The notes under the pieces were generated by a model. The model worked only from the letters and a program-made list of their open reading frames with translations, searched no databases and had not been told where the DNA came from. The translations under genes and the position numbers were made by a program. Of a DNA stretch of 64,000 bases, positions 9,545 through 53,297 are shown one piece after another; the stretch's first letter is position 1, and every line of letters starts with the position of its first letter. This DNA is from Azolla caroliniana (taxonomy: Eukaryota > Plantae > Polypodiophyta): NCBI GenBank assembly GCA_043228905.1, contig JBHGNT010000016.1, forward strand, positions 6,386,001-6,450,000, read 5' to 3'.

Positions 9545-9776
9545 CGCCCCCTCAAGGTCAACTTGGGTCGGTTCCTTTTGATTGATGTCCGCTTCGACTG
9601 GTATCCGGTTCAAACGATCTCCGGTTTCCGCTTCGGCTCGTACTTGTTTGGACGGTATATGGTTCTCGCATGTACTCCCCCTCAAGCTTGGCAAGTCAGG
9701 AATCGTCAATCCAAGGTCTGACATGAATAATGGGAGTCTGATCCTTGATGGGGACACCCAGATCCTTCTAAATCCT

Positions 9777-11814: not shown

Positions 11815-12280
11815 TGTCAGGAATAGTACTAAACATAGAGAGGATTAGTACTAAATAGAGAGAGAATTAGTACTAGAGAAGGGAAGTACTATTAGTACTA
11901 AGGGGACGGGACTGCGTAAGACTCCCGAGAGAGGAAGAGAGAAGAGTAGAGAGAGAGATAGCGAGGACGAGAGAGAGAGAGAGATGATGATAACAGATTA
12001 TATCTTGTAAGAAGAGTAAGTACAAAAGGGCTATGAGGCTAAAGACTGGCGTTGAACCAATTTGGTTCAACATAATGCCTAGTGCCCTCTTTTATAGTGT
12101 TCTCAAGAGTAATCCTGAAGCTTCTAGAATGTTCTAGAGAAATATGGAATATACATTAATTTCCTATAATAAAATGTAAATGAAAATAATATCCTATGTA
12201 TTACAATAGATGATATAATGGTCAAGAACTCGACCCATATAACCTAAGGTCATGGGTTTGAGTCTTGCCATATCATGACA
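11815..12280 (-). repeat. 3' LTR of chromovirus A
   Basis: tgtcagg...catgaca; matches 17064-17547. Confidence 0.95.
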
Positions 12281-15825: not shown

Positions 15826-15849
15826 AAACGGCTCCTATTTTGGCTGGAC

Positions 15850-16992: not shown

Positions 16993-17063
16993 GGGATGAA
17001 AAGAAAAGAGGGATAAGAGATTAGTATGAAGGGAGAGAGACAGAAGGAGAAATTGGTTCAAAC

Positions 17064-17214
17064 TATCAGGAATAGTACTAAACAGAGAGAGGATTAGTAC
17101 TAAACAGAGAGAGAATTACTACTAGAGAAGGGAAGTACTATTAGTACTAAGGGGACGGGACTGCGTAAGACTCCTGAGAGAGGAAGAGAGAAGAGTAGAG
17201 AGAGAGATAGAGAG

Positions 17215-17269
<55 letters not shown>

Positions 17270-17547
17270 GATAACATATTATATCTTATAAGAAGAGTAA
17301 GTACAAAAGGGCTATGAGGCTAAAGACTGGTGTTGAACATAATGCCTAGTGCCCTCTTTTATAGTGTTCTCAGGAGTAATCCTGAAGCTTCTAGAATGTT
17401 CTAGAGAAATCTGGAATATACATTAATTTCCTATAATAAAATGTAAATGAAAATAATATCTTACGTATTACAATAGATGATATAATGGTCAAGAGCTCGA
17501 CCCATATAACCTAAGGTCATGGGTTCGAGTCTTGCCATATCATGACA
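17064..17547 (-). repeat. 5' LTR of chromovirus A
   Basis: Copy of 11815-12280 with a longer GA run, a terminal TG>TA change on the plus strand and a 14-bp deletion at ~17338. Confidence 0.95.
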
Positions 17548-18981
17548 CACAAAAACTCTCGCCGAATTCCTTCTTTCCGTAGATACGCTGTAAACTCATC
17601 CGAGAAATATTCCTTGCCTCCATCCGATCGAAGACATCATACATGTCGGCCCGGCTTTCTCGACTTCATTCTTGAATTTTTGGAAGTGTCTGAACACTTC
17701 GCTCTTTTGCCGCATCGGGTAGATCCAAGTGTGCCTAGAGAAGTCGTCGATGAAGGTCACGTAGTATCGGCATCCGCCGAATGTCGCCGTCTGAGCCAGA
17801 CCCCATACATCAGAATGAATTACGTCGAGTACGCCTTTACTCACGTTCCGCTCCTTCGGAAATGGGTGCCGATGTTGCTTGCCGAATTGGCAAGCGGCAC
17901 ACACGCCTTCAATCTCTTTCTCCGTGAATGTCGGGAGCCTGATGACGACTCCTTTCGATTGCATTGCTTTAAGCTTTTGAAGGTTGATATGGCCAATCCG
18001 CTTGTGCCATAACTCTAGGTCAGACTCGGCTTTCGTGCCTTTTGCGAACATGGCCGATTTCATTTCGTGCGAGTCGAGAATGAACATTTGGCCCTCTCTT
18101 CGTCCGCGCGCGATGAGTCAGCCCTCTTTTTCGATGAAGCAACTGCCTTGATTAAATCGAACTTGCATTCCTTGCTCTACAATTTGGCCGAAGGAGACCA
18201 AATTCTTTGTGATAGTTGGTACATGCAAGACATTTTTAATGTAAGTTTGCATACCTTCTTCTCCGAACGGAACATTGCCGATGTGCCGAATCGGGTGCAT
18301 AGAGTCGTCTCCGGTTTCGACATAGCCAGGTCGGTCCGGCTCTCGAAGTTCTTAGAACCATTCTTGATGCGACGTCATATGGTTCAAGGCACCGGAATCG
18401 ACGAACCATACGTCTTCCGAACCGGAGGCATTAGTAGAAGTAGAGGCCGACATAGAATTCGCTCTATGTCTCATCACGAACATTCCGTCGCGATCGTCAT
18501 AGCCGGAGTTGATGGCGTAGTTGGTGAGTTGTCGGCTAGTGGAAGCCGACTCGCGTATCTCCAGTGTGGTTTAGAAAATCCACTAAGCCCACCCGACTCC
18601 GTGATTGTGTGTTCGAGATGCCGACGACAAAATCCGGCTATCAGCTACCATAGTGTCGCTACGTAGCACGTGTACGTGATCGAAGGAAAGTGAATGGCTT
18701 ATTGGTTAGGGTTATTCAATGTGTGTAGAAGGTGTAGAGTTTGATGCTCGCTTAGAGCGACTACATTAAAATATATTCCTTTTTCTTTACTTTTATATGG
18801 CGAAAGGGACATTTGCATTTAATGCAAATGAGGAGGCTCCTTTTCTATAAAAAGGGGGGAGGGCTTCTTTTGGGTCCTTCGTTCTTCGTTTTTGGGGTGG
18901 TCTTCCTTGACATTTTTGGGAGCTCGAGAGTGTTCATCTTCGTCTTCTTCAGTTTTCCTTTTTTCTTAAACTTTCCTTTGT

Positions 18982-25020: not shown

Positions 25021-27995
25021 TTATTCAGGGGGACACATGGCGTCCTCCGTGGTGATCTCCCGAGTCTCGTTTGTGCCGTGTGGCTCAGTAAACGGATTGG
25101 GTGGTGTAGTCCCTCGATATGGTCGAAGTCGAAAACCATTGGCCCAGCTTTTGACTGTGTCACCGGCGAGTGTGCCGAGCTGGAACGTCCCGTTGAACTC
25201 GTCGATAATCCAGAATGGACCGGTCCACCGAAATCTTAATTTTCCCGGCATTGACCCGAGTCGTGTTTGGAAAAGAAGAACTGGTTTGCCGATGGTGAGC
25301 TCCTTCTCCAGCCCATGTCGATGTCGATCCACGAAATCCTTGCGTTGCCGTTTGCGTTGTTCGAGTTGGGTCATACTCTCTATCCTATCTTCCCCGAGTT
25401 CGAGGAGTTTTTCCAGCTGGTATTGCTCGGATTCGGCCTCGGGGAGCCATGCTTTGACTTGAACTCGGAGGCTCAGGATCTGGAACTCGACTAGCATTAC
25501 GGCTTCTAACCCGAACGCCATTCGAAAGGGGCTCGATTGGATGCTTGTTTTGAAAGTCGTACGATACGCCCACAACGCGCTCTGGAGTTTGTCATCCCAA
25601 TCGGTCCTGTTTTCATTGACGATCTTCTTCAGTATGGTTTGGAGGATTTTATTGGTCGATTCTGCCAAGTCGTTCGCCTGCGGGTAGTATGGTGTGCTTT
25701 TCTTGTGCACCACCGTGTAGTGGTGTGTAAGCTCACGTACTATGTGATTGATGAAGTGCCCACCTTGGTCACTAACAAGCTCGATTGGACATCCGTAACG
25801 GCACCAAAGGTGCTCGTACACAAATTTAGCCGTGGATGCCGTTGTGTTATCTCGGAGTGCCTTAGCCTCGACCCATTTGGTGCAGTAATCCGTGGCAACG
25901 ATAATATACCTATTCCCTGTTCGGGCCGTGGGTGGTTTGAAAGGGCCTACAAAATCCAAACCCCATTTTTGAAATGGGTCCAACGGAAGAATCGGTTGGT
26001 GTGGCATCCGTGACTGTTCCATTGGTTGCCCCAGACGTTGACACAAATCTCATTGCTGACAAAACTCGTGAGCTTCTTTCTTCATTGTCGGCCACCATAA
26101 TCCACTTTGCCAAACTTTCCTTGCCGTGGAATCCCGGCGTAGTGTCCCCCAGCTACTCCCTGGTGGGCTTCCTGAAGAACGACGTTCTTCTCGAATTGCC
26201 GAATCGCTCGGCGCCATATCCCGTCCGAGCCTTTGTGGTAGAGAATGTCCGAGACGAGGCAAAAATTCCGGCTACGCACTGCTAGGCGTTTTCTCGTGTC
26301 ATGTGCTCGGGAGGTACACTGGTATTGAGAAAATGGGTCATCTCCGTGATCCATTCATCTCCGTTATCGTCTGGTACCGTGGTCAGGTTAAATAGGTTGG
26401 CGTCCGGTAGCTCGTCGTACGTTGTTTTCTCCAATTCTCCTGACTCAAGACGGCTCAAGTAGTTGGCGACAGCATGTTGTACCCCGGGTCGATGCTGAAT
26501 CTGAAAATCAAACACTTGTAGTAGGAGCATCCACCGAGCCAACCGTCCGGTGAGGGCTTGTTTATTGACCAAATAAAGAAAGGCTGAGTGATCCACGTGA
26601 AAGGTAAATTTTCGGCCCAAGAGGTAATGCCGAAATTTATTGATGCTATAAATCATACCGAGGGCCTCCCGCTCGTTGGTGGAGTAATTCTTTTCCGCGG
26701 TCGAGAGCCGTCGGCTGGCGTAGTACACAGGCCTATACCAATTCGGGGGTGTGCATTGCATCAGGGCACTTCCGATGACGATGTCCGAAGCATCTACGAA
26801 GACATGAAACGGTTCGGACCAAACCGGAGACTGGACCATCGGGGCATGTGACAGCATTCGTTTCAAGGTCTGATAGGCCGTGTCCTCGACTGACGTCCAT
26901 TGGAAAGGAAGGCGATGGACTGCCGCGTGCAAGGGTGTCACGAAATCGGCCAGGTGTCGTATCATTCGGCTGTGCCACCGGATCTGTCCCAAAAAACGGC
27001 TTAGTGCCTTATCGTTCGAGGGTGCGGTGGCATTCAGGATTGCCTTTACTTTATCTGGGTCCATAACGATGCCTTCTTGACTGACAATGTGGCCGAGAAG
27101 GTTGCCGCTGGTGACTAAGAACGTGCATTTCGCCGGGTTTAAACTCAATCAAGCTTGGCGACATCGGTCCAGGCAGAGTCGTAACTGGGTCATGTGTTCC
27201 CGTCGATGGCCATACACGTCGAAATCGTCGAGAAAGACTTGCATGAACGTCGGGATGTAGTCATGAAAGATTTCGGTGATGATGCGCTGGAACGTAGCCG
27301 GCGCCGTTTTTAGACCGAACATCATAACTTCTGCTACAAAAACACCCCATTCCGTGATGAAAGCGGTTTTCTCCTGATCCTCCGGGTGCATTCTTATCTA
27401 GTTATAACCGCTGAACCCGTTGAGGAAACTGTAGCATTCGTGGCCAGCTACCGTGTCGAGGACGCTATCCGTGAATGGGAGAGGGAAACCGTCGGTGACT
27501 GTTGCCGCGTTAAGCTTCCGATAGTCGATGTAGACGCGGATTTTTCCGTTCTTCTTTGGGACCACTACGATCGGGCTCAACTATGTAGCCCGTTTAATAG
27601 GGCGAATGAAGCCCACTCAGAGTAGTTTGTCAATTTCCTCTTTGACTTTAGCGGCGTAGTTGGGGTTCATCCTGTAGCACCTTTGCTGAACCGGCCGAGT
27701 GTCGGGTAAAATGTGAATTTGATGTTGGTAGTATTGAGGATCTAGCCCCTTCATATCGGTGTAAGACCAAGCGAAAACATCCTGGTACTCGGTGAGTAAT
27801 TTTACGCGGCATGCCCGTTCGCCGGTTGGTAGATTATTGGCAATTTGTACCGTACAGGGATTCTCGTCCGAACCGAGGTTTATTGTTTCCAGGGTTGATG
27901 CTTTCACTCGTTGTGAAATGGCGAGTTCGCGTTTGAAAGCCTCCCGAGCATGACGTAGCTCGGCAACTGTGGTTGCATCTGGTTCATCCTGGGGT
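25021..27995 (-). pseudogene. Non-chromovirus Gypsy pol (RT-RH-IN), disrupted
   Basis: SPIVVVPKKNGKIRV..DYRKLN, FGLKTAPATFQR, FLDDF, VFVDAS, NYSTNERE, PFQKWGLDFVGPF, YYPQAN, WTGPF. Confidence 0.92.
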
Positions 27996-28121
27996 TGTCA
28001 GGAACTCTATTAAGGCAGAGAAGGAATTAGTACTAAAAGAAGGATTAGTACTATTGTTGGGGAATAGTACTAAGACAGAGAAGGATTAGTACTATGAGAG
28101 GTGTCGAACTTTGAGAGAAGG

Positions 28122-28164
<43 letters not shown>

Positions 28165-28454
28165 TGATGCGAAAGATATATGTATTATATGAAGGAAGAT
28201 ATACAACAGTAGTTAGAAGGCTTAAGACTGGCGTTGAACCGATTTGGTTCGAACTAATGCCTTGCGCCTCCTTTTATAGTGTCTTCAGGAATACTCCTGA
28301 AGTTTCTAGAATGTTCCAGAGAAATCTGGAATATACATCAATTTCCCAATAAAACCTAAATGAAAATAATATCCTTCAAATTACAATTCATAACCTAATG
28401 GTAAAGTCTCGACCCGTGTAACAAAAGGTTATGGGTTCGAGTCTAGTTATGACA
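27996..28454 (-). repeat. 3' LTR of chromovirus B
   Basis: tgtcagg...ttatgaca, adjacent to PPT AAAGGGGGGATAG. Confidence 0.96.
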
Positions 28455-31400
28455 CTATCCCCCCTTTAAAACGACGAGTTCCACGAGTCGTTTTGGATTG
28501 AGGACCCGGTTTCTCGGGATATCGTCGATGGAAGTCTTCTAGAAGAGCACGAGCATTGGTCACATTCTCGATCGGTTCCCAAGTACGCTCGCTGGGACTA
28601 TATCCTAGCCAATCGACTAGATAGTAGAGCTTGTTGCGAACAATCTTGGAATCGAGGATGGCAGCGACCTCATACTCAGGTCCATCTTCGAGCTCGATAG
28701 GAGGTGGTGGTTGTATAGTACGTCCTGGGATAGTGCTCTCGTGATAGGGTTCGAGGAGAGAACTATGAAACACCGGATGTATCCGAAGTTGCGGAGGTAG
28801 CTCGAGACGAAAAGCGACATCATTAATCTTCCCGATAATACGGAAAGGACCTAATCGCCGATAATCCAACTTCTCACATGGGCGAGTAGTCTTGATGTGT
28901 CGTCGTAGCAGCCACACCCGATCTCCAATGTTAAAACTGGATGGAAGTCGATGACGATCTGCGTAGTCCTTGTGTGATTGTTGAGCTTGCTGGAGTTGAG
29001 TAGATAAATCCGCTTGTATCTTGCGTAACCGCTCCAAACGATCCTCCGCGCAAGGATTTGTGGACACTTCTGGGGTTTCAAGGACACACCACCGGGGATG
29101 ATATCCCGTATAAGCGTAGAATGGCGTGACTTTAGTCGATGCGTGGATAGCGTTATTATAGGCAAATTCGGCGAACTGAAGAATATCTGCCCAGTCATTC
29201 TGATGATAGTTGAGAAAGCACCGCAGATACTGCTCCAGTGTTTGATTTGTTCGTTCGGCTTGACCGTCGGTTTGTGGGTGGTAGCCGGAGGAGAGGTTAC
29301 AAGTGACCTTCAGCATTTTAAAAAGGTGCTTCCAGAATTTTGACACAAACTGGGGTCCACGATCGCTGATGATATTATCAGGGAGTCCATGATGCCGACA
29401 TACTTCCCGCATGACAATTTCGGCGGTGTCTTCACTAGATATTTCTTTAGTACAAGGTAAGAAATGAGCCATCTTCGTATATCGATCCACCACTGTGAGA
29501 ATCGCACTGAATCCCTTAGAGACTGGAATATCTGTAATGAAGTCAAGAGCAATGGATTGCCATGGCTTGCTTGGAATTGGTAATGGTTCTAATAAACCAT
29601 ATGGATGATGTCTTGGCATTTTCGCTCTGCAGCATGTATCGCAAGTCCGAACAAAATCTTCGACAAATTGTCGCATACGGGGCCACCAGAATGATCGTTG
29701 TACTAAATCTAATGTTTTAGTACTACCAAAATGTCCTGCTGTATATGTGTCATGGCAATTTTGTACTACTCGAAGGCGGCAAGAACCATTAGGAACATAC
29801 AAAAGTTCTTTAAAGAAGAGTAATCCATCACAGTATTTGAATTGCCGATAATCCGTACCTGGTGATTGTGATTGTGAACATGACGCTCGAGAGGGGTCAA
29901 TTTGTGCTAGTATAGCTTGGGCGAAAGCGTCAGTCTTCAAGTCCTCACGTATAGTATTGGTAATGTCGGAATCCACGGGCATGTCAAAGACTTGTGCTGC
30001 TTGCAGTCGTGCTGGACCCAAGATTACTTGCTTCTGGTTATCGAAAGCTGGCTCACCGGGACGTGGTGTTAGATACGAACGCCGTGATAATGCATCTGCC
30101 TTCCCTTGGTGCTTCCCCGGACGATATGTAATTTTGAAGTCGAAGCGTGTGAGGAAGTGGGCCCACCGAGCTTGACGTCGATTCAGTACACGAGCATCTT
30201 GAAAGTAGGCAAGGTTCTTGTGGTCACTGAATACAGTGACCTGATGAGGAGATCCCTCCAGGAAATGCCTCCATTGCATAAAAGAATCAACTATTGCTAA
30301 TAGCTCTTTATCATGAATTTCGTAGTTGATTTCGGCGGCGTCAAACTTACGGGAGTGGAAAGCCACAGGATGTAGCTTCTCGTCGTTACCCTGTTGTGAC
30401 AGAATGCTCCCCAATGCGAAATCCGATGCGTCAGCTTCGATAATGAATGGTTTTTCCGGATCCACATGACCTAAAATTGGAGCTGATGTAAACGCCTTCT
30501 TAAGACTCTCGAAAGCCATGTCCGTCTCTTTAGACCAAATGAATGATTGTCCCTTCCTGGTGAGCTGTGTGAGAGGCAGCACAATTTTTGAGTAATTTTG
30601 TATGAACTTCCAGTAAAAATTTGCAAAGCCTAGGAAGCATTGCACATCCCGCACCGAACGCGGAGTGTGCCATTCTATCACCGTTTTGACCTTGGCTGGG
30701 TCCATAGATATGCCTTCTGAGGAGATGACATAGCCGAGAAATTCCACTTGGTTGCACCCGAAACTACATTTCTCTAACTTTGCATACAGACCATGTTCTC
30801 GAAGTCGTTTTAGTACTAATAGTACATGAGAATCATGTTCTTCTTGGGTCTTTGAATAAACCAGTAGATCATCCAAATAGATGATCAAAAAATCATCCAA
30901 GAGATCTCGAAATATATCATTCGCCATGTGCTGGAAGACTGCTGGCGCATTAGTGAGTCCGAACGGCATGACCGTATACTCGAAGTGCCCATATCTGGTG
31001 CGAAACGCGGTCTTCCATTCATCTCCTGGTCGGATCCGTACGAGGTTATAGGCTCCTCGTAAGTCGATCTTCGTGAAGAACCTGGCACCGTTGATCCGTT
31101 CTAAAAGACTTGAGATAAGGGGAAGAGCATACCTATTTCTTACTGTGACCTTATTCAAGCCACGATAATCTACAACGAGTCGAAGCGAGCCATCTTTTTT
31201 CTTGACGAAGAAAATGGGTGCGCTGGCTGGAGATTTCGAATGCCGAATGAAACCGTTCTCCAAATTCTCCTCTATATAGGCTCGAAGGACTTCTAGCTCG
31301 GTTGGTGACAAATTGTAGATCGGCCCCCATGGCGGCTCTTTTCCCGGTTGTAAGTCGATGGCGCAATCGTACGGCCGATGATGAGGAAGTGTGTTGGCTT

Positions 31401-32036
31401 GTACTTTATCGAACACATCAGCATACTGACGATACTTCTCGGGAAGTTGAACGGTGGACTCCTCTTTGGTGGTGCTGGAGGGTTGTACTGATATTGCGAA
31501 GAGAAACATTTCCTCCTTGCGCCCTTCCTCACGCAACTGACGTAGCGAAATGGTTGCAACCTTCTGGGTAGATCCTTGGGTTTGTCGCAACCAGATTTCC
31601 CTTGTCCTCCAATCTATGTCTGGGTTATGTAACTCGAACCATGGTAATCCTAAAACTATGGGATGTTCTGGAATACTAATAATATTAAATGATACTACAC
31701 ATGTTAAGTTATCTAGGACAATATTAACGGGTTCCGACTCTTCTATGATATTACCAGAAGCAATGGGACGACCATCAATGACTACTACTGAGGCTGGACA
31801 TGGGAGCTTTCTGAGAGATATCTGATGAGCTCGGGCAAAATTCCTATCCATGAAGCAAGAATTAGCTCCGGAATCTAGAAGGGCTAAGGTATGTACTGGA
31901 GGGGTACTTTTAGTACTAACTGCTACTTGGGCTACGAACACATCACTAACTTGCTTAGAGGGAATGGAACCACTAATGGGCTGCACAGATCTAGGGCTGT
32001 CCAACCAAACGGCTCCTATTTTGGCTGGACTTAGTC
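28447..32036 (-). CDS. Chromovirus B pol polyprotein (PR-RT-RNase H-IN-chromodomain), intact, -1 frame relative to gag
   Basis: ALLDSGA, IIYLDDLL, EADAS, HxxxxxxH..CxxC, DFIT/SDRG/GQAE, GPF, and chromodomain EYEVAAILDSK..YYLVDWLGY..TWEP. Confidence 0.96.
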
Positions 32037-32043
32037 GTTTAAC
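31999..32043 (-). promoter_or_regulatory. -1 programmed ribosomal frameshift signal (G_TTA_AAC plus stem-loop)
   Basis: Heptamer at 32043-32037, 6-nt spacer, 11-bp stem GTCCAGCCAAA/TTTGGTTGGAC; a -1 shift enters the pol frame; identical in element A at 15818-15862. Confidence 0.8.
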
Positions 32044-33200
32044 TCTTCTTCTAATTGGCTAAGGACATCAAATTTGTTTGCGAGATTCGGACTATTAGTA
32101 CTATTAGGACTATTATGACTATGAGGACTATCAGAGATTCCTACTGAAATAGACTCGGGTTTAGTATAGTCAGAACTAACAACGACTTGGTTTACCTGCC
32201 TTCTTGGTCTATGGGGACAGTTTATCGCGATATGCCCTGGTCCACCGCAATAAAAGCATAATCGGTTTGTTCGGCGTCGTTGCTTTTCCTCCTCCGATAG
32301 CGGCCCACGACGACGTGTAGTGTCAATTTCCATTGGAGTTGGAGTACTTACTGGAGGCGCATTATGTGACTCCCTTTGAAAAGGTTTTGCTACCACTGAG
32401 GCATAGGTAGGCTCGGATCTTGCCCTCGGCATCTGAAATTGTCGTTCTGAACGTCGCTCGAAGAGGCGGTTGTCACATCTGACCGCTCGACTGATTGCTT
32501 CTGTTAATGATTTTGGCTCTTCAGGGAAAGTCAAGAGTAAATCCTTGACATCGTTGCGTAGACCATAGCGGAACTGCTCCATCAATGCTTGATCATCCCA
32601 GGGGATATCGGCGGCGAGTAGGCGGAAATCTGCAGCATATGCGGAGGCTGGACGGTCACCTTGGCGTAATCGCCGGATTTTGTTGATTGCAGTCCTTATG
32701 CTGTCAGTATCTCCAAAACATGCTTTAAACTCACTTATGAATTCTTCAAAATTATTTAGTACTGGAGATTCCTTTTCTAGTAGCGGAGCGAACCATGCTA
32801 ATGCTGAGCCATTTAACAACGTGCCTACTAAACCCACTCGTGATGCATCGGTGGGATATCGGGACGGATGCATTTGAATAACTAACCGTACCTGGTTAAG
32901 AAACCCTCTAAACTGCGATCGCGTTCCATCGAACTTCGTGGGAAGGCCAATCTTGGGTTCTTTATGAATCCCTTGTGCTCCGTGCCCTTGTTGTTGCATT
33001 GCTACGATGGTTGCTTCGAGTTGTTGCACGCGTAACGCAAGTTCCCCATGCTGTTGTTGCGTTTGCTGCTTTTCTAAGGAAATTTGCTGAAGATCCCCCA
33101 ACAAGCGTTGATTTTCTTGTTCCAAAGCATGAAACTTCTCTTTCAAGCATTGAAATTCCGAGAAAACGGATTGATACTCTTCAGCGCTAACGGTGGCCAT
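32031..33200 (-). CDS. Chromovirus B gag
   Basis: 389-aa ORF: N-terminal coiled coil, PTKFDG, LRQG, PMEID, CFYCGGPGHIAINC. Confidence 0.95.
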   Translation of the reverse strand: MATVSAEEYQSVFSEFQCLKEKFHALEQENQRLLGDLQQISLEKQQTQQQHGELALRVQQLEATIVAMQQQGHGAQGIHKEPKIGLPTKFDGTRSQFRGFLNQVRLVIQMHPSRYPTDASRVGLVGTLLNGSALAWFAPLLEKESPVLNNFEEFISEFKACFGDTDSIRTAINKIRRLRQGDRPASAYAADFRLLAADIPWDDQALMEQFRYGLRNDVKDLLLTFPEEPKSLTEAISRAVRCDNRLFERRSERQFQMPRARSEPTYASVVAKPFQRESHNAPPVSTPTPMEIDTTRRRGPLSEEEKQRRRTNRLCFYCGGPGHIAINCPHRPRRQVNQVVVSSDYTKPESISVGISDSPHSHNSPNSTNSPNLANKFDVLSQLEEELND

Positions 33201-33283
33201 GGGATGAAGGAAAAGGGAAATAAGAGACTAGTAGGAAAGGAGGGAGGCAGAAGGAAGAGGGAGAGAAAAGACCAGACAGGCAC

Positions 33284-33298
33284 ACCAAATCGGTTCAA
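33284..33298 (-). promoter_or_regulatory. Self-priming PBS of chromovirus B (complementary to LTR 33535-33549)
   Basis: Sense PBS TTGAACCGATTTGGT is the exact complement of ACCAAATCGGTTCAA, which begins 30 nt downstream of TATAAAAG; no TGG tRNA-type PBS is present. Confidence 0.85.
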
Positions 33299-33300
33299 AC

Positions 33301-33426
33301 TGTCAGGAACTCTATTAAGGCAGAGAAGGAATTAGTACTAAAAGAAGGATTAGTACTATTGTTGGGGAATAGTACTAAGACAGAGAAGGATTAGTACTAT
33401 GAGAGGTGTCGAACTTTGAGAGAAGG

Positions 33427-33465
<39 letters not shown>

Positions 33466-33755
33466 TGATGCGAAAGATATATGTATTATATGAAGGAAGA
33501 TATACAACAGTAGTTAGAAGGCTTAAGACTGGCGTTGAACCGATTTGGTTCGAACTAATGCCTTGCGCCTCCTTTTATAGTGTCTTCAGGAATACTCCTG
33601 AAGTTTCTAGAATGTTCCAGAGAAATCTGGAATATACATCAATTTCCCAATAAAACCTAAATGAAAATAATATCCTTCAAATTACAATTCATAACCTAAT
33701 GGTAAAGTCTCGACCCGTGTAACAAAAGGTTATGGGTTCGAGTCTAGTTATGACA
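33301..33755 (-). repeat. 5' LTR of chromovirus B
   Basis: Matches 27996-28454. Confidence 0.96.
33572..33632 (-). promoter_or_regulatory. LTR promoter: TATA box plus extended heat-shock element (also at 28271-28331)
   Basis: TATAAAAG at 33579-33572; TTCagGAAtaCTCctGAAgtTTCtaGAAtgTTCcaGAGaaATCtgGAA at 33585-33632. Confidence 0.8.
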
Positions 33756-33760
33756 GGGGT

Positions 33761-37805: not shown

Positions 37806-38485
37806 TGTTGTGAAGATTTTCGTCCATAGGCGGAAAACCGAGCGAAGTAAGCAAACCCGCGATGTGCAACGTTGCACATCAAGATGTTGTATTTCTATTT
37901 GTCGATAGTGATAAGTGTGGTGCTAGAAATGCACCTTAGGATTTGTAAAGTGTAAAGGTGATGTGCTTTTCGCGCACATCCACGTGAGAGAGAGAGATAG
38001 GTACATAGTAGTTCGTGTAGAGGTGGGAGTTAAGACCCATCCTTCCCTCCTCCCCTAAAATCAAGGGAAATATCCCCATTGATTGAAAGGGGATATTTTG
38101 TAGCACCCTTTTTGAAAACGGTCTTCTCTCCTTGTGCTATAAAAGGAGAGGAAGAGCACCATTGTGGGGGTTGCCTTATTTTGGAGTGTGAGTGAGGTAT
38201 ACCATTTCGTCTAGGGTTCCTTAGTTAGGGTTTCTTTTCTTCTTCGTCGGATTAGGGTTTCGGGTTTATCATAGTCGTTCGGTGCGGCCTACGTGGCCGC
38301 CATTTTGTAATCGGTTTTTGGTTCTAATATATCTTGTTGAGCATTTGGCCTCCATCTTCCTCTTGTTCATTCTTTCTCTTCTTGTGCTAAGCTCCATTCC
38401 GAAGTCCTATCCCTTCTCCCCTTCTCCTTAGTCCAAGACCCCCGTGGTTCCGCCCTTCTCCACGCACGCGCGTAACAACGCGACA
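37806..38485 (+). repeat. 5' LTR of the gag-only element
   Basis: tgttgtgaag...acgcgaca; TATAAAAG at ~38138. Confidence 0.95.
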
Positions 38486-38489
38486 TCTT

Positions 38490-38507
38490 TGGTGAACCCG
38501 ACGTGAA
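38490..38507 (+). promoter_or_regulatory. Primer binding site, tRNA-Trp
   Basis: TGGTGAACCCGACGTGAA, the 18-nt complement of the plant cytosolic tRNA-Trp 3' end TTCACGTCGGGTTCACCA (from memory). Confidence 0.85.
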
Positions 38508-38527
38508 GGGCGGCAAGGGAGAAAGAG

Positions 38528-41500
38528 ATGGAAGAAGGCTTCGACTTCGAGGAGATGATGACAAAGATCTTGATGGACGCCGGACGGAAGAGGGCGAGGC
38601 GAGAGGCGGCTCAACAAGCGGTCGAAAGGGTGGTCCGTCTAGTCGGCCGGTTCGATGGGAAGGAGGTCCCAAAATTTTTGAGAGCCTACGATGCGGAAAT
38701 GACGAGGATGGGCGTGGACGAAGCGACGAGGCTAGAGTTCTTTCGTCGAGCGGCGGCCGCATCAAAGCACGAGGAGGTCAAGGAGCTCCAAGAAGCTCAC
38801 GAATCGTGGGAGTCCTTTGAAGGGGCTCTAATGGAGGCATACGGGTGCGCGGAATCGGAGGTAAGAGGTCAGCGAGAGTTCGATCGGTGGGTGGCGTCGG
38901 CGAGGCGCCATCGGAGCGCAATGGAGGCATTCCGAGAGTTCGAGCGTCGTTTCTCTCAACTCTCGGAGTGGGAACGAAGATCGGTGGGGGCGGACAAAGT
39001 CCTCCTATTTTTGGAGACGGTCCATCATGAGGAGAGGATGGACATCATGTTCGAGCTTCAAGACGATTATGGGGCGCATGGTCTCACCGAGGAGTGGCCC
39101 GAAGTGGAATGGGTGTGTCGGCAACATGAGGCGAGGCGGTCGGCCACAACACGGCCCGCGAGCGGGGGAGAAGAGAGAGCGACAACCGACTACGCCATGC
39201 CGCCGGACGAGAGCTCATCGCGAACCGGTTTGGAGGGGCCCGACCTACAAGCGCTAATACGGGAGGCGTGCGGGCTCGTAATGGCGAAAATCGAAGCCGA
39301 AGAATGGCTTATGGCGGGGTCGGGCCCGAGCGGATCGGAGGACGCGGAGGAAGGAGCTTCCTCACACATGGAGGACGGGGCCTATGCGGAGGCCGAAAGA
39401 GAATGGTACATCGGTACCACGGGAGAGGGTGCGGAGCGAGCCGCCCTCTCAACATGGGGGAAAAGAACGACCGAGGACGAGGTCGGGGACGGTGAGGCGG
39501 CGATCGCCGATTCGAGCGGACATGGCGGATTCGGGACACGGTGGCCCGAATCATCGAGTACGGAGGAGACAAGCAGAGGTACCGCAACCTTCCACGCACC
39601 GGTTCGAGAGACCACGGCGGCCGGCCCGAGCGCCCGCGAGAGACCGAGGGAGAAGAACGGTGGCGGCGGCAAGGAGGGCAACCGAGACAACGGTAAGGAG
39701 ACCGCGGAAGAGGCGGCGGCAAGCATAACCGATGCTTGCATATACGGAGGCGGGGTAGCCACGGACAACGACGTCCGAGCGGAGGTGGCTACGGACATTA
39801 CATCGACGAGCGGCGGTCCCGCGACCTTACACGCGTCATTCCTAGAGATCACGGCGGCCGGCCCGAGTGCCCGCGTAAGACCTATGGTGAAAGGCGGTGG
39901 CGGTGGCAAGGCGGGCGACCACGGCGTCAACACGAGAGAAGGTGCGGAGCAAGCGACCGTCTCATCTCGGGGAAAAAGAACGGCCATGGACGAGGCCGAT
40001 ATCTACGGAGCGATGGACGCCACTTCGAGAGTGGGCGGAAGTTTCGGGACGCGGTTGCCCGAAACGTTCTACGAGGATTTCGCGAGCATACTCGAGGCTT
40101 GCGAAATGGAGGAGGAAGACGAAACGAGCGATGGTGTCGCGACCTTCCACACACCGGCCCTAGGGGCTTCGGCGGTCGGCCCGAGTGCCGGCACGAGACC
40201 TAGAGCTACGGACGGTGGCGGCGGCAAGGCGGACAACCCAGATGAGGACGAGACCGGCGAAGAAGAGGCGGCGGCAAGCATACTCAATGCTTGCGAAACC
40301 GAAGACGGGGTAGCCACGGACGACGATGTCCGAATGGAGGTGGCTACGGACGAGAGGAGTGGTGGTGTCGCGACCTTCCACACACCGGTCCTAGAAACTC
40401 CGGCACCCGGCCCGAGAGCCGGCGAGAGGCCTAGAGTGACGGACGGTGGCGGCGGCAAGGCGGGCAACCGAAACGACGACGACATGGGAGAGGGTGCGGA
40501 GCGAGCAACCCTCTCGTCTTGCGGCGAATGGACGGCCAAGGATGAGGCCGGTGACTACAAAGCGGAGAGCGCCACTTCGAAAGTGGGCGGAAGATTCGGG
40601 GCACGGCGGCCCAAAACATCGAGCGGAGAGGAGGCGAGCGGTGGTGCCGCGACCTTCCACACACCGGCCCTAGAGGCTTCGGCGGTCGGCCCGAGTGCCG
40701 GCACGAGACCTAGAACGACGGGCGGTGGCGGTGGCAAGGCGGGCAAACAAAATGACGCGGAGAACGGCGAAGAAGAGGTGGTGGCAAGCATACTAGAGGC
40801 TTACGGAATCGAAGATGGGGGAGCTGCGGACAACGACGTCCGAACGAAAGCGGCTACGGAGACAACAAGCGGCGGTGCCGGGTCCTTACCCACACCAATC
40901 CTAGAGGCTCCAATGGCCAGCCCGAGTGCCGGCATGAGGCTTAGTGCGACGGGAGGTGACGGCGGCAAGGCGGGCAACGGAAACGAGAAGGAAGATTGGA
41001 GCGGACGGAGGCAAGACCCCTTGACACCGGGGCCGGAGACTTCGGCGGTTGTGCTCGAATGCCAACGTGAGACCGGAGAGATGGGCGGTGACCATGAGGA
41101 GGTGAGGCCCGGAGAGAGCGGATACGAAGACGAGTATGCGGGGCCCGGAATGGGCGTATACGGTGGGTCCGACGGAGAGGACCGGAGCGGAAACGAGGAG
41201 AGAGTCGGGAACCGACCCGACCGGAATACGGCACGGAAGAAAAAGAGAGTAAGGGCCGGCGAATCGGGCCCAAACCGAAGGAAGCCGGCGAGACCGATTG
41301 GCCGGTTACGGTTACGGTTACGGTTACGATGGGAGCCGGAAAGCGCGAGATGGAGGTTAACCGGGCACGACGACCATGGTTCGGGGGAAAAACGGAAACA
41401 AACGAGACCCTCCATACCCACTCTAGAGACTACGGCGGTTGCGGATCAACATGAGACCGGAGAAACGGCGGGTGGCGGCGAGGAGTCGGAGGCCGGAGCG

Positions 41501-42787
41501 TACGAGGTTACCGGAACGGATATCCGGTACGAGATGGTGGACGGGTGGGTCCAAGACGGCGAGCCCATGTCGGAACGGGCTACGGCGACAAAGGAGGAGA
41601 AGACCGACATGGAGGTCGGGTCTATGGCGGAAGAACGAGACGAGATGCATGCAATACGGCCGATGGAGGGCCAAGAGACAAGCATGCCTACGAAGGAGCC
41701 ACATCGAGCGACCGAAGATGACGGTCGGATCACGCCTTCGAGAGGCGAATACGAGGAGGAAGGCGGCGACGACAAGACCTGGCACGATGCTAGGGAAGAT
41801 TGGTGGGAAGAGGTGGCCTACGGAGAGGCTAAGACCGGCGGCCACGAAGATAAGGCCCGAGAGGGGTCCTCCGCACCGGCTATAGAGACTCCGGCGGTCG
41901 GCGCGAGTGCCGACGTGAGACCAAGAGTGGCGGACGGTGGCGGCGAGGGGACGAAGGCCACAACGGATGAAGGCACCGAGAGAGGCATACGGGAGGTCGC
42001 GGAGAACGAAGATGTATGCGCCCAAAAGAACGAACACGACATCACGAAGGATGTGTGCGGTCGAGCGGGCCAAGAGGGCCAAGAGGGTGTTCCTCCGAGC
42101 GAAACGGAGGTCGGGGAAGAAAGGTACCTTTCCGAAAAGGTACGCGAAGAGGAGCGGAATGCGAAACGTGCAATGCGGCCGCATGAGGGCCAAGCAACGA
42201 GCACGGGAACGATGGTATGCTCTACGGCGAGAGAGCACGGCAAGCAAAGGGAAGGCGAAAAATGCGTGATGGGGTCATCGAAGGACCGAAGCACGAGCAC
42301 GCATTCGGAGGACGACACCGACGTACGGGGAAAGCCTACGGAAGGCAAGCGCGGAGCGAGAAGAGTCGGCACGACGAGGTGCGCGGCACGAAAAAGGCGG
42401 ATCCGGAGGATATGCGAGGCGGACAAAGGGTCGGCAACGGCGTTCGGGAGGACCGATCGGGGAAGAAAGCGCGGGCATCGGAAACGGCGGTCCGGATGTA
42501 GACGGTGGTTCGAGGAAACACGGTGGACGTGGCGGATCGGGTGGAGGCCACGACTCGGCGAGCGTCGTCAAGTGTGGCGGATCGGATGGAGCCGACGGTT
42601 CGAGACCATTCGGCGGAGATGGTGGGCCGGAAGGCGACGGTGGTTCGTGTGGACGGGGTGGACTTGCTCGAAGTGGAAGACTAAGCCGGGCAAGCCCACG
42701 AGGTTGTCAAGGGCTCGGTTGGCCGCCTTGGCCGAAAATCTCGCGTTTTGTTCCCCTTTTGGCACATACCGGTGGATGTGCGGTTAG
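38528..42787 (+). CDS. 1419-aa ORF: Gag-capsid-like N-terminus, long acidic Gly/Ala/Thr repeat region, Arg/Trp-rich C-terminus
   Basis: Uninterrupted ORF filling the element from PBS to PPT; GRFDGKEVPKFLRAY...SWESFEGALMEAY...FREFERRF resembles retrotransposon Gag; repeats of ATFHTP..E.....GPSA..RPR...GGGGK. Confidence 0.75.
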   Translation: MEEGFDFEEMMTKILMDAGRKRARREAAQQAVERVVRLVGRFDGKEVPKFLRAYDAEMTRMGVDEATRLEFFRRAAAASKHEEVKELQEAHESWESFEGALMEAYGCAESEVRGQREFDRWVASARRHRSAMEAFREFERRFSQLSEWERRSVGADKVLLFLETVHHEERMDIMFELQDDYGAHGLTEEWPEVEWVCRQHEARRSATTRPASGGEERATTDYAMPPDESSSRTGLEGPDLQALIREACGLVMAKIEAEEWLMAGSGPSGSEDAEEGASSHMEDGAYAEAEREWYIGTTGEGAERAALSTWGKRTTEDEVGDGEAAIADSSGHGGFGTRWPESSSTEETSRGTATFHAPVRETTAAGPSARERPREKNGGGGKEGNRDNGKETAEEAAASITDACIYGGGVATDNDVRAEVATDITSTSGGPATLHASFLEITAAGPSARVRPMVKGGGGGKAGDHGVNTREGAEQATVSSRGKRTAMDEADIYGAMDATSRVGGSFGTRLPETFYEDFASILEACEMEEEDETSDGVATFHTPALGASAVGPSAGTRPRATDGGGGKADNPDEDETGEEEAAASILNACETEDGVATDDDVRMEVATDERSGGVATFHTPVLETPAPGPRAGERPRVTDGGGGKAGNRNDDDMGEGAERATLSSCGEWTAKDEAGDYKAESATSKVGGRFGARRPKTSSGEEASGGAATFHTPALEASAVGPSAGTRPRTTGGGGGKAGKQNDAENGEEEVVASILEAYGIEDGGAADNDVRTKAATETTSGGAGSLPTPILEAPMASPSAGMRLSATGGDGGKAGNGNEKEDWSGRRQDPLTPGPETSAVVLECQRETGEMGGDHEEVRPGESGYEDEYAGPGMGVYGGSDGEDRSGNEERVGNRPDRNTARKKKRVRAGESGPNRRKPARPIGRLRLRLRLRWEPESARWRLTGHDDHGSGEKRKQTRPSIPTLETTAVADQHETGETAGGGEESEAGAYEVTGTDIRYEMVDGWVQDGEPMSERATATKEEKTDMEVGSMAEERDEMHAIRPMEGQETSMPTKEPHRATEDDGRITPSRGEYEEEGGDDKTWHDAREDWWEEVAYGEAKTGGHEDKAREGSSAPAIETPAVGASADVRPRVADGGGEGTKATTDEGTERGIREVAENEDVCAQKNEHDITKDVCGRAGQEGQEGVPPSETEVGEERYLSEKVREEERNAKRAMRPHEGQATSTGTMVCSTAREHGKQREGEKCVMGSSKDRSTSTHSEDDTDVRGKPTEGKRGARRVGTTRCAARKRRIRRICEADKGSATAFGRTDRGRKRGHRKRRSGCRRWFEETRWTWRIGWRPRLGERRQVWRIGWSRRFETIRRRWWAGRRRWFVWTGWTCSKWKTKPGKPTRLSRARLAALAENLAFCSPFGTYRWMCG

Positions 42788-42798
42788 GTGGGGGCGGA

Positions 42799-43478
42799 TG
42801 TCGTGAAGATTTTCGTCCATAGGCGGAAAACCGAGCGAAGTAAGCAAACCCGCGATGTGCAACGTTGCACATCAAGATGTTGTATTTCTATTTGTCGATA
42901 GTGATAAGTGTGGTGCTAGAAATGCACCTTAGGATTTGTAAAGTGTAAAGGTGATGTGCTTTTCGCGCACATCCACGTGAGAGAGAGAGATAGGTACATA
43001 GTAGTTCGTGTAGAGGTGGGAGTTAAGACCCATCCTTCCCTCCTCCCCTAAAATCAAGGGAAATATCCCCATTGATTGAAAGGGGATATTTTGTAGCACC
43101 CTTTTTGAAAACGGTCTTCTCTCCTTGTGCTATAAAAGGAGAGGAAGAGCACCATTGTGGGGGTTGCCTTATTTTGGAGTGTGAGTGAGGTATACCATTT
43201 CGTCTAGGGTTCCTTAGTTAGGGTTTCTTTTCTTCTTCGTCGGATTAGGGTTTCGGGTTTATCATAGTCGTTCGGTGCGGCCTACGCGGCCGCCATTTTG
43301 TAATCGGTTTTTGGTTCTAATATATCTTGTTGAGCATTTGGCCTCCATCTTCCTCTTGTTCATTCTTTCTCTTCTTGTGCTAAGCTCCATTCCGAAGTCC
43401 TATCCCTTCTCCCCTTCTCCTTAGTCCAAGACCCCCGTGGTTCCGCCCTTCTCCACGCACGCGCGTAACAACGCGACA
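42799..43478 (+). repeat. 3' LTR of the gag-only element
   Basis: tgtcgtgaag...acgcgaca; near-identical to 37806-38485. Confidence 0.95.
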
Positions 43479-50700: not shown

Positions 50701-50832
50701 CATATTCATGCCACCCCTCTCCCTACATAGGATAGATAGGTAGTGGAGACTAAGAAGTGTTGTAACCCTGGATTTTACATACAATTAATATAATTGTGTG
50801 GTTTTATTGAGAGAGAGTAAGAGAGCCTAGAT

Positions 50833-50930
50833 GGATGTAGCTCAGTTGGTAAGGTTGCCCAATGGAGACCAGGTGGTCATGGGTTCAACCCCTACATTCC
50901 ACTGCCACGGTGGCATTTAGTGAAATAAGA
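50833..50930 (+). mobile_element. tRNA-derived SINE-like head (Pol III A and B boxes)
   Basis: GGATGTAGCTCAGTTGGTAAG (A box) ... GGTCATGGGTTCAACCCC (B box); folds as a rod rather than a cloverleaf. Confidence 0.65.
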
Positions 50931-52713
50931 GATCTTTTGGAGTAATAGAGAGGTGAGAAATTTGGGTTTCGAACCCAAGATGTAGTGTAAGTGACTTATT
51001 AAATTACAATAAGAGAGAGAGAATAGATTTTCTTAAACCATAAAGCTAAATTTGATTAAAGCAATTACGTTTTGTTTAAATCAAGAATTGAAACCGAAAC
51101 CTCTAGCTAGCATGATAACCAACTACACTATCTAAGCATGTTAAAAAACTAACAGAATTGCCTATTTTAATGTCTATGGGGATGACGAGGCCTAACGCAT
51201 GATGAGGATCAAGTTTGTCCATTGAACCGTAGACATCTAGTGTGTGAGACTAGGGTGATAACCAACTCAATTATCAAAAGAAAGAAAGAAAGGAGACATA
51301 TATATTATTGATTGCACTAACCCTTTCTATCAAATTTATCACTCTTAACCGGAAAGCAAAGAGAAGCAAATGATTACCAAAAGTGTCATTTATCATCTTT
51401 CACATTATTTGGCCCCTTTCACGATATAGCAACCACGGAGTATTTACCTTTTGCCCCCTTCTCCTTGATCTTTAACTTGTCCCTTTGGTGTCAATGCCAT
51501 CATAAAGGCATGGGAAGTAAGTATACCTCAAGATCAAACAACTTCATTGTAGATTTTAATACAATGTCAAATGTAGAAGATGTTAGTATGGGATTCATAG
51601 TAAGGCATAAGACGTCTCAAGAGTTGAATGCATATGTGAAAGGTCATGCCCATATATAGACAAGTAGAAGCCACTCAAATACATGGAACACAATAAAATT
51701 GTGATAAATGCTAATTTAATCGAGTCAAGGCTTGATTCACATTTTCCTCGCCTCTCAAAAATTTCATGCATCAAGACTTCCTTCATTGTCACCAATTTTG
51801 AGAACCAATGAGCAAAGCATGATAATATTGTGAATTATGATCTTATGATGTAGAAACAAAAGAGCGAACATAACATTTCCATGAGAGATCCCTATGCTTG
51901 TTCTCTCCCCCCCCCTCCCCTTCCGTCGTCGTGCAGTGTAATAGGGTGATGTATAACGATGCGCGCTTTTGAACTCCTCAAAGTCTTGTCGTGCTCAGGG
52001 AGATTCAAACCATGGACCATCTATGTACACAGAATCTAAATTCTTAAAGAGTGCGCTACCCGAACACGTGCATGGACCATTTTTTCTACAGAACCTTAAG
52101 TTCAGGTGGTGCTGAGGGAGCCACGACCCCCTCCACCCCACTCACTCCCCCAAGGGAACCATACTCTACAGGATCTTTATATTCTAGGGCGTGATCAGGG
52201 AAACACAGGGACGATTTCGGTACAGGAACCTTAATATAACGAATCTGTGTGCGCTCGGCTGGAGATATGTGAAACCTCGAGGGGATCATTTCCATACATA
52301 CGGAGACTTGATTCTGGGTGTCTGTGTGCGGACTGGGGGGGGGGGGAGGCTCGGACCCTTAGTGGCATTCAAGATGAGAGAGATATGAGTCCACTCCACA
52401 GGTAGTATCTTTTAGTTTCTTTCTTTCTTGTTGGATGTGGACAGTGGCATCCCAAATTTCCACAAGGAGATAATGAGAGCAGAAGGCCATTTATGTAAAT
52501 TTGCCCAAATGATCAAATATCCTTCCTCTTCTTCCCCCCCCTTCCCCCTTCTCCCTTCCTTTTCCTCTTCCTTTTTTCCTCTCCAAAGAAAGAGGAAGAA
52601 CAGAGAGAGCAGAGAGCTTTTCAAGCAGACTGTTAACCGTCGATTTCTTGCTATCTCCGCACACAGGTATTCCATTATTCATCTACCGCCTTATCTTTCA
52701 CCATAAATCCCCC

Positions 52714-53140: not shown

Positions 53141-53297
53141 ACTATCAACTGGTGTGTTCTATGATCAGCGGGGAAATTTGGGTTTTCTAGTAGCAGCCTA
53201 ATTTGTAGAATAACATAATCGTGGGCCTGGGGAAAAGCTATATAAGTGGAAGCCTATTTGATTGCTTTACAGAGAAAAAAAGAAAGAAGAGAAAAGC

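What the first reader, a model, noticed from the sequence alone, without database searches (positions are those of the whole stretch)
33689..33755. Antisense tRNA/SINE-like hairpin module at the U3 tip of both chromovirus LTR families
Seen: on the strand opposite to the element, the last ~65 nt of each LTR have an A-box-like TAATGGT and a B-box GGGTTCGAGTC. They fold into a long imperfect hairpin closed by a 7-bp stem whose sequence differs between families (B: TCATAAC/GTTATGA; A: ATGATAT/ATATCAT), with inner CTCGA/TCGAG and CCC/GGG pairs. Copies lie at 12210-12276, 17477-17543, 28388-28452 and 33689-33753. The SINE-like head at 50833 shares GGTCATGGGTTC with family A and has the same rod layout. 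Established: Cassandra TRIMs carry 5S-derived Pol III promoters in their LTRs. Inference: a captured tRNA-SINE head may act as a Pol III promoter or TFIIIC insulator. From the 3' LTR it would make a short antisense RNA across the PPT, ending at TTTT near 28490; from the 5' LTR it would fire into flanking DNA.
Basis: partly seen in the sequence, partly recalled or inferred. Interest (0 to 1): 0.7.

Follow-up and report, generated by a model that had tools for sequence, protein, structure and literature searches.

The report
tRNA promoter boxes in fern retrotransposons
A lineage of protein-coding fern jumping genes keeps the two promoter boxes of a tRNA gene, pointing backwards, at the outer tip of each terminal repeat while the surrounding DNA has drifted apart, and these boxes likely recruit the host's tRNA-gene transcription factor, which would help shield the element's own promoter from silencing.

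Summary
The motifs are real; the hairpin is mostly not the conserved thing. The four copies lie antisense at the U3 tip of two self-priming, Tcn1-type chromoviruses in a fern. A matrix trained only on E. coli tRNAs scores this tip at 10 bits or more in 24 of 31 related families and 0 of 17 in a distant clade, always with tRNA spacing (G18 to G53, 34-36 nt). Box columns are 78-85% conserved against 50-57% beside them, while fourfold sites in integrase are near saturation, so the boxes are under selection. The cloverleaf is gone, the 7-bp closing stems of A and B are not homologous, there is no consensus fold and no conserved terminator. The 50833 head is a separate SINE-like repeat sharing only the T-arm motif. 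Best reading: a TFIIIC/Pol III site acting on DNA, likely as a boundary in front of the Pol II promoter; binding and transcripts are not shown. Main rival: tRNA pairing by the sense RNA, as in Ty3 U3. It differs from Helenus (non-coding, sense). The scan has noted tRNA boxes in chromovirus LTRs of another, fungal genome (e1-10420520, unchecked).

The parts
33692..33702 (+). A box (tRNA positions 8-19) in the 5' LTR of element B
33727..33731 (+). variable-loop motif AGGTY (positions 44-48), element B 5' LTR
33736..33744 (+). B box (positions 53-61), element B 5' LTR, 19 nt from the LTR end
28391..28443 (+). A box to B box module in the 3' LTR of element B (identical to the 5' copy)
17478..17531 (+). 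A box to B box module in the 5' LTR of element A
12211..12264 (+). module in the 3' LTR of element A, B box with C56 to T
33301..33755 (-). 5' LTR of element B (TGTCA...TGACA); TSD GGGGT at 27991-27995 and 33756-33760
   Evidence: 455 of 455 aligned bases identical to the 3' LTR
27996..28454 (-). 3' LTR of element B; the pol stop codon lies in its first 8 nt
17064..17547 (-). 5' LTR of element A; TSD CACAA at 11810-11814 and 17548-17552
   Evidence: 437 of 452 aligned bases identical to the 3' LTR
11815..12280 (-). 3' LTR of element A
33600..33617 (-). core of a heat-shock-element-like array (alternating GAA/TTC units) between the module and the TATA box
   Evidence: motif definition recalled
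33573..33580 (-). TATA box of the LTR's Pol II promoter, 122 nt inward of G18
   Evidence: function inferred
33534..33548 (-). predicted self-primer at the start of R, 30 nt after TATA
   Evidence: 15-nt complement of the PBS
33285..33300 (-). primer-binding site of element B, self-priming type, not tRNA type
28455..28467 (-). polypurine tract of element B
   Evidence: sequence
28447..32058 (-). pol of element B: protease, RT, RNase H, integrase, SH3, chromodomain
32031..33227 (-). gag of element B with CCHC knuckle
50831..51022 (+). separate tRNA-headed, SINE-like repeat (A box 50838-50849, B box 50883-50891); not the source of the module as far as tested
   Evidence: 25.9 bits; second copy in L015, 76% over 173 nt

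Best explanation
The U3 tips of this fern chromovirus lineage carry tRNA-derived A and B boxes, antisense and at tRNA spacing, that are conserved well above their neighbours, and they likely bind TFIIIC on the DNA, which would set up a tRNA-gene-like boundary between flanking silent chromatin and the element's Pol II promoter 120-210 nt further in. Shown: the boxes, their spacing, their distribution, their conservation, the loss of the cloverleaf, the self-priming PBS. Inferred: an ancestral tRNA gene or tRNA-SINE head entered U3 once in the ancestor of the clade and was copied to both LTRs by reverse transcription; TFIIIC binds; the 5' copy faces outward and acts as a barrier or nucleosome-clearing site, useful to an element whose chromodomain is expected to guide it into heterochromatin (here both copies sit inside other retrotransposons); any short Pol III RNA is a by-product with family-specific ends. 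The module cannot make the genomic RNA: it points the wrong way.
For: Matrix trained on 15 E. coli tRNAs: at least 10 bits on the antisense tip in 24 of 31 clade representatives, 0 of 17 in the distant clade; 0 of 100 shuffles reach the score in each of the 24; the sense strand of the same tips never exceeds 4.8 (Fisher p 1.6e-7 ignoring relatedness). Spacing 34-36 nt in all 24, as in the short-arm E. coli tRNAs (35-36), while B box to LTR end varies 19-71 nt and G18 to TATA 122-207 nt. Reverse test: a sequence-only model of 23 modules finds, in 76 kb of E. coli DNA, tRNA T-arms in 6 of its 7 hits. Unanchored alignment of all 31: A-box core 0.78, positions 44-48 0.85, B box 0.80, against 0.50-0.57 for spacer, downstream and inner U3; fourfold sites in integrase agree with element B at only 25-45% in the distant families. 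The pattern is that of a TFIIIC site (consensus recalled; Helenus paper gives TRGCY, YGG, GGTTC): T8 19/23, A14 22, R15 23, G18 21, G19 21, G53 23, T54 22, T55 23, C56 22, A58 22; position 57 is G or A only, position 59 takes all four bases. At the CpG 56-57, G to A is seen 9 times and C to T once (p 0.02 ignoring relatedness). Stems and terminator are not conserved, which points to DNA rather than to an RNA product. Precedent for a divergent, decayed tRNA-like unit whose boxes serve a neighbouring promoter: Leishmania U2 (PMC4950102, abstract read).
Against: No binding, chromatin or transcript data; RNA reads were too few and unspecific. A-box positions 9-13 are decayed (G10 in only 6 of 23). 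Conserved bases outside the minimal boxes (T35 23/23; A44 22, G45 20, G46 22, T47 23) are not explained by TFIIIC. The G57-to-A bias is also what G-U wobble pairing with a tRNA would give. An inner helix (26-35 with 49-59) is Watson-Crick in 77% of cells in the A/B subclade and 47% in the other 14 families, against 13-30% slid, so an RNA or cruciform role is not excluded. 7 of 31 representatives scored under 10 bits; the model recovers full or partial modules in 3 of them (L016, L035, L037) and none in 4 (L034, L039, L077, L079). The 10-bit cut was set after seeing the scores. The barrier role itself rests on analogy with yeast and mammalian tRNA genes and SINEs (recalled).
Confidence: 0.55

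Rival explanations
1. The sense genomic RNA uses this U3 stretch to pair with the T and D arms of a host tRNA, as Ty3 does with the U3 part of its bipartite PBS, for dimerisation, packaging or end-to-end bridging rather than priming.
For: Same place (U3), same polarity (complement of the tRNA) and same arms as in Ty3 (PMC5371799, passages read). Conservation runs through 44-47, beyond the minimal B box, and G-to-A changes that wobble would tolerate dominate at 45, 51, 52, 57. A tRNA-like antisense stretch in HIV-1 U3-R is recalled; the paper was not held and two searches did not surface it.
Against: The elements self-prime: in all 8 clade copies where the script found a PBS with an upstream complement (7 loci and element B), a 10-15 nt complement lies 30-34 nt after TATA, the PBS changes between families together with it, and none starts with TGG. 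Position 59 takes all four bases and 48-52 vary, so no 11-12 nt perfect block is kept; an isolated T8 is conserved with 9-13 free.
Confidence: 0.17
2. The module is a real Pol III gene whose short antisense RNA, folded as a SINE-like rod, is the selected product (self-regulation, dsRNA over the PPT, or interference with the 3' LTR promoter).
For: A box retained as well as B box; partial inner helix; strong rod in family A (z -5.0); T4 within 20 nt after the B box in 10 of 23 families.
Against: Antisense rod z of -2.5 or lower in only 4 of 24; RNAalifold gives no pair on 23 or 37 sequences; Watson-Crick count of the inner helix 134 against 124 shuffled, 26 of 2000 shuffles as high, a margin that relatedness alone can give; transcript ends differ among families; no read pile-ups.
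Confidence: 0.13
3. The conserved words are read on the sense strand, by Pol II factors or by integrase and RT near the U3 end, and the tRNA ancestry is incidental.
For: They sit beside the att site and the PPT; T35 and AGGT are conserved without a box role.
Against: Distance to the LTR end varies 19-71 nt and to TATA 122-207 nt while box-to-box spacing is fixed at 34-36; the free and fixed positions match the tRNA boxes.
Confidence: 0.09
4. A neutral relic of an old tRNA or SINE insertion.
For: No transcript or binding shown; 7 of 31 representatives are decayed or lack it.
Against: Boxes 78-85% conserved where fourfold sites are near saturation and adjacent U3 is at 50-57%; asymmetric loss at one CpG; heat-shock-like arrays in the same U3 are lost in whole families that keep the boxes.
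Confidence: 0.06

Closest known systems
Helenus / TRIMp3 (Kojima 2024, PMC10886601; parts 1-4 and 6 of 6 read, supplement searched for four terms)
   Same: tRNA-derived sequence in both LTRs, boxes A and B conserved, tRNA function lost, origin by tRNA or SINE capture proposed.
   Different: Helenus are non-coding TRIMs of 311-1263 bp with tRNA-type PBS; in the one plant family (Helenus-1_SMo, sequence seen) the tRNA part is on the sense strand in mid-LTR and is thought to transcribe the element. Here the carriers are 5.8-kb gag-pol elements that self-prime, and the boxes are antisense at the U3 tip. The paper argues that autonomous partners must use Pol II, and remarks only that 'not a few LTRs' in Repbase resemble part of a tRNA.
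Ty3 bipartite PBS, S. cerevisiae (PMC5371799, passages read)
   Same: U3 holds sequence complementary to the T and D arms of a tRNA.
   Different: Ty3 primes with tRNA-iMet and has a 5' PBS for the acceptor end; these elements have a self-complementary PBS, and the conserved positions follow the promoter boxes, not unbroken blocks.
Tcn1 clade chromoviruses (PMC6317226 and PMC2864245, passages read)
   Same: Domain order, chromodomain with aromatic residues of the cage, self-priming, non-seed plant host, LTR of about 450 bp, 5-bp TSD.
   Different: The passages seen report no tRNA-like part in the LTR; 17 representatives of a more distant clade lack it.
Cassandra TRIMs (from PMC10886601 and PMC12786077 passages)
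   Same: Pol III promoter of small-RNA origin in the LTR of a plant retroelement.
   Different: 5S type, sense, non-autonomous, shown to drive the element's RNA.
tRNA-like unit upstream of the Leishmania major U2 snRNA gene (PMC4950102, abstract read)
   Same: Decayed tRNA-like sequence kept for boxes A and B, lying upstream of another transcription unit that needs them.
   Different: There the served gene is Pol III-transcribed and the effect is shown; here the served promoter would be Pol II and nothing is shown.

Membership tests
Helenus / TRIMp3 | tRNA-derived sequence with boxes A and B in the LTR | tested here: met
Helenus / TRIMp3 | non-coding TRIM under about 1 kb | tested here: not met
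   5.76-kb element with gag and pol
Helenus / TRIMp3 | tRNA part on the sense strand, able to transcribe the element | tested here: not met
   antisense here; sense in Helenus-1_SMo
Helenus / TRIMp3 | PBS complementary to a tRNA | tested here: not met
   self-complementary PBS
Tcn1 chromovirus | gag, PR-RT-RH-IN and C-terminal chromodomain with aromatic cage residues | tested here: met
   cage positions judged by eye from recall
Tcn1 chromovirus | self-priming PBS | tested here: met
   feature from PMC6317226
Tcn1 chromovirus | non-seed plant host | tested here: met
   host KH gene: best named hits are ferns, 58-65%, seed plants 55% or less
Tcn1 chromovirus | groups with reference Tcn1 elements in an RT-RH-INT tree | not tested
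   no named reference elements were held; the tree has none
functional tRNA gene | cloverleaf stems and score on tRNA models | tested here: not met
   acceptor 37%, anticodon 35% paired; ARAGORN 0; no Rfam tRNA hit at E 10
Pol III type 2 promoter / TFIIIC site | A box and B box at tRNA spacing | tested here: met
   A box 9-13 decayed
Pol III type 2 promoter / TFIIIC site | short transcript with T-run terminator | tested here: inconclusive
Pol III type 2 promoter / TFIIIC site | TFIIIC or Pol III occupancy | not testable with these tools
   needs ChIP or CUT&Tag
Ty3-type bipartite PBS | U3 segments complementary to T and D arms of a tRNA | tested here: inconclusive
   true in outline; host tRNA set not available; blocks not invariant
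Ty3-type bipartite PBS | 5' PBS complementary to the tRNA 3' end | tested here: not met
tRNA-derived SINE (element at 50831) | A/B-box head on a dispersed repeat | tested here: met
   only two copies seen
tRNA-derived SINE (element at 50831) | tail and target-site duplication | not tested
   AG-rich flanks seen, not resolved

The most novel reading that the evidence does not exclude
An autonomous, heterochromatin-seeking retrotransposon lineage has domesticated a tRNA promoter as a built-in insulator: every LTR, solo LTRs included, plants an outward-facing TFIIIC/Pol III site in the fern genome, so that one repeat family shields its own heat-responsive promoter and scatters chromatin boundaries and Pol III start sites wherever it lands.
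Probability: 0.35. Interest if true: 0.8.

Novelty: new variant of a known kind. Interest (0 to 1): 0.6.

Why it matters
Small-RNA promoters in LTRs are described for short non-coding elements, where they transcribe the element. Here they are kept, backwards, by protein-coding elements that cannot use them for that, so selection must act on another function. If it is insulation, it would explain how a chromodomain-guided element stays expressible inside silent chromatin, and would make a high-copy repeat a source of TFIIIC sites in fern genomes. If it is tRNA pairing, it would show a tRNA role in an element that does not prime with tRNA. Either is testable with point mutations in a 60-nt module.

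Tried and rejected
No whole genome is held, so no genome-wide copy set and no host tRNA set could be compared. ARAGORN and Rfam find no tRNA in the window, in 60 of the 79 loci (ARAGORN) or in the two short stretches scanned alone; ARAGORN at a relaxed threshold calls something in all three test pieces, on the wrong strand for A, and was discarded. Viral contigs hold no relative. Consensus folding gave no pairs; cloverleaf rejected; mutual information showed no rod pair at the top. Descent from the 50831 head: 10-15 of 18 matches at 44-61 but 4-13 of 22 and 1-5 of 11 beside it, so only the generic T-arm motif is shared. Landing-pad idea from the scan's notes: 4 clade LTRs of 47 rows show a break, at 50, 59, 106 and 179 nt, no common offset; not supported, small sample. 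Pairing of the B-box complement with the self-primer: rejected, since the PBS changes between families that keep the boxes. RNA: 24, 24 and 31 reads from about 12% of three poly(A) runs of a related organism, both orientations, no pile-up of ends; library polarity unknown; a fourth run is contigs only (23 reads). This is no evidence either way. DNA contigs laid list 40 of 146 variant sites, 7 in the module and none in the box cores; too partial to count. mis-registered L015 by 8 nt and included the chimeric L044; counts per position are taken instead. The tree is the quick search; the careful one did not finish. A hairpin just before the PPT was not supported as a consensus.

Full report
Setting. 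The window is plant DNA filled with nested LTR retrotransposons. A host KH-domain gene at 53262-56364 has ferns as its best named relatives (Adiantum 65%, Ceratopteris 58%). No whole genome is held. Two related minus-strand elements carry the motif: A (11815-17547, TSD CACAA, broken frames, LTRs 437 of 452 identical) and B (27996-33755, TSD GGGGT, open gag and pol, LTRs 455 of 455 identical). Pol ends in SH3 and chromodomain. The PBS is complementary to the element's own sequence 30 nt after the TATA box. Chromodomain, self-priming and a non-seed host are the marks of the Tcn1 clade (PMC6317226, passages read); placement against reference elements was not tested.

Observation. The copy at 12210 has C56 to T. 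The copies fold better than shuffles on both strands. Neither ARAGORN nor Rfam calls a tRNA.

Relatives. An LTR start after a PPT was found in 73 of 79; 69 had 120 nt or more of U3; with the window copies and removal of near-duplicates at 85% this left 48 representatives. A quick tree of the last 400 residues of Pol splits them by one long branch (0.64, SH-aLRT 100) into 31 that include A and B and 17 distant ones. Hosts of these contigs are not verified.

The tip is tRNA-derived. A position matrix for A box, D-loop GG and B box was trained on 15 E. coli tRNAs only. It scores the antisense U3 tip at 10 bits or more in 24 of 31 and 0 of 17; no shuffle of 100 reaches the score in any of the 24; the sense strand never passes 4.8 bits there; G18 to G53 is 34-36 nt in all 24. 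One of the 24 (L044) is chimeric and holds only the B-box half. In the window, B's copies tie for the top score, and 9 unrelated positions in 128 kb reach 12 bits. In reverse, a sequence-only model of 23 modules hits E. coli tRNA T-arms in 6 of its 7 E. coli hits and the head at 50849; over all 79 loci its 42 hits fall in the clade of A and B, none in the distant one, and include 3 of the 7 low scorers.

The boxes, not the fold, are conserved. In an unanchored alignment of all 31, the share of the commonest base is 0.78 in the A-box core, 0.85 at 44-48, 0.80 in the B box and 0.88 in the last 9 nt of the LTR, against 0.57 in the spacer, 0.54 after the B box, and 0.56 and 0.50 further into U3; fourfold sites of integrase agree with B at 25-45% in the distant families. 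Among 23 modules G53, T55, T47 and T35 are invariant, T54, C56, A58 and A14 are at 22, position 57 is G (14) or A (9), position 59 takes all four bases. The B box lies 19-71 nt from the LTR end and G18 122-207 nt from TATA (13 measured). Cloverleaf stems are lost (acceptor 37%, anticodon 35% paired). RNAalifold finds no pair. An inner helix is partly kept: 73% of cells with G-U; Watson-Crick 77% in nine families near A/B and 47% in the other 14, with 26 of 2000 column shuffles as high. A significant rod is seen in 4 of 24. The first T4 after the B box is inside the LTR in 10, beyond it in 7 and absent within 150 nt of the LTR end in 6 of 23.

The head at 50831 is a separate tRNA-headed repeat, with a second copy in L015 (76% over 173 nt). 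It folds cloverleaf-like (z +0.1) and matches the modules only over 44-61. The shared GGTCATGGGTTC can arise by CpG decay of a common tRNA word; forms with CG, TG and CA at 48-49 all occur among the modules. A SINE origin stays possible but is not shown.

Mechanism. The module points away from the element, so it cannot make the genomic RNA, which has its own TATA box and self-primer. Fixed and free positions follow the Pol III type 2 boxes, and fold and terminator drift; this points to a protein site on DNA. I commit to TFIIIC binding at the outer edge of the 5' LTR, acting as a boundary ahead of the Pol II promoter (0.55). Barrier activity of tRNA genes and SINEs is recalled, not read here; a decayed tRNA-like unit serving a neighbouring promoter is reported in Leishmania (PMC4950102, abstract). 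The chief rival (0.17) is pairing of the sense RNA with a host tRNA, as Ty3 does through U3 (PMC5371799, passages); self-priming and the free position 59 count against it, the conserved AGGT and the G-to-A bias fit it. A functional antisense RNA (0.13), a sense-strand site (0.09) and a relic (0.06) follow. Expression is untested: three poly(A) runs of a related organism gave 24, 24 and 31 scattered reads.

Known and new. Helenus TRIMs carry tRNA boxes in LTRs (PMC10886601; parts 1-4 and 6 of 6 read; supplement searched for four terms) but are non-coding, tRNA-primed and, in the plant family seen, sense. Five searches for a precedent in autonomous or Tcn1 elements (listings, with passages of PMC2864245, PMC12786077 and PMC13570524) showed none; the library lacks most subscription journals and Repbase notes, and the Helenus paper itself says that other LTRs resemble tRNA parts. 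The scan's notes describe tRNA boxes in chromovirus LTRs of a probable gut fungus and antisense tRNA-like units inside fungal Gypsy elements (unchecked AI notes); no look-alike of this sequence was on record. Their landing-pad idea found no support in this small sample. Verdict: real, under selection, a new variant of small-RNA promoter capture in LTRs; function inferred. Interest 0.6.

Noticed in passing
window 33590-33625, 28289-28324, 17375-17410, 12108-12143 (-): Arrays of alternating GAA/TTC units like heat-shock elements just upstream of the LTR TATA box; present in 17 of 31 clade representatives and 0 of 17 distant ones. The elements are likely heat-inducible.
   Followed up: partly
window 33534-33548 and 33285-33300; L008, L010, L012, L024, L027, L033: Self-primer and PBS change together between families, 30-34 nt after TATA; the R start is itself a short palindrome. 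The 5' LTR of element A has lost the self-primer by a 14-nt deletion.
   Followed up: partly
window 28447-28454 and 12273-12280: The pol stop codon lies inside the first 8 nt of the 3' LTR, with the PPT coding for the last residues; many relatives end in the same GIVS/GIMS.
   Followed up: partly
window 28464-28495 and 12290-12321: A short palindrome just before the PPT, within the coding tail; present in many relatives by eye but without a consensus fold.
   Followed up: partly
window 50831-51022; L015 270-510: tRNA-headed SINE-like repeat with an inner direct repeat and AG-rich flanks; candidate fern SINE family.
   Followed up: partly
window 37806-43478 (+): An LTR element (LTRs 99.7% identical, 680 nt) holds a 1426-codon open frame with no Pfam match and GC-rich repeats of 230-320 nt spacing at 39400-41950; it interrupts a Copia pol.
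   Followed up: no
window 19626-47064: At least four levels of nesting: LTR pair 19626/46384 encloses pair 20841/36242, which encloses element B; element A sits inside a Copia at about 9700-18700.
   Followed up: no
window 28125-28160, 33430-33461, 17209-17266: An AG microsatellite lies inside R/U5 of both LTR families and is the only difference between B's two LTRs.
   Followed up: no
window 53262-56364 (+) and 61177-62016 (-): Host genes: a multi-exon KH-domain RNA-binding protein (HEN4-like by hits) with a Pro/Gly repeat exon, and an exon without a Pfam match.
   Followed up: partly
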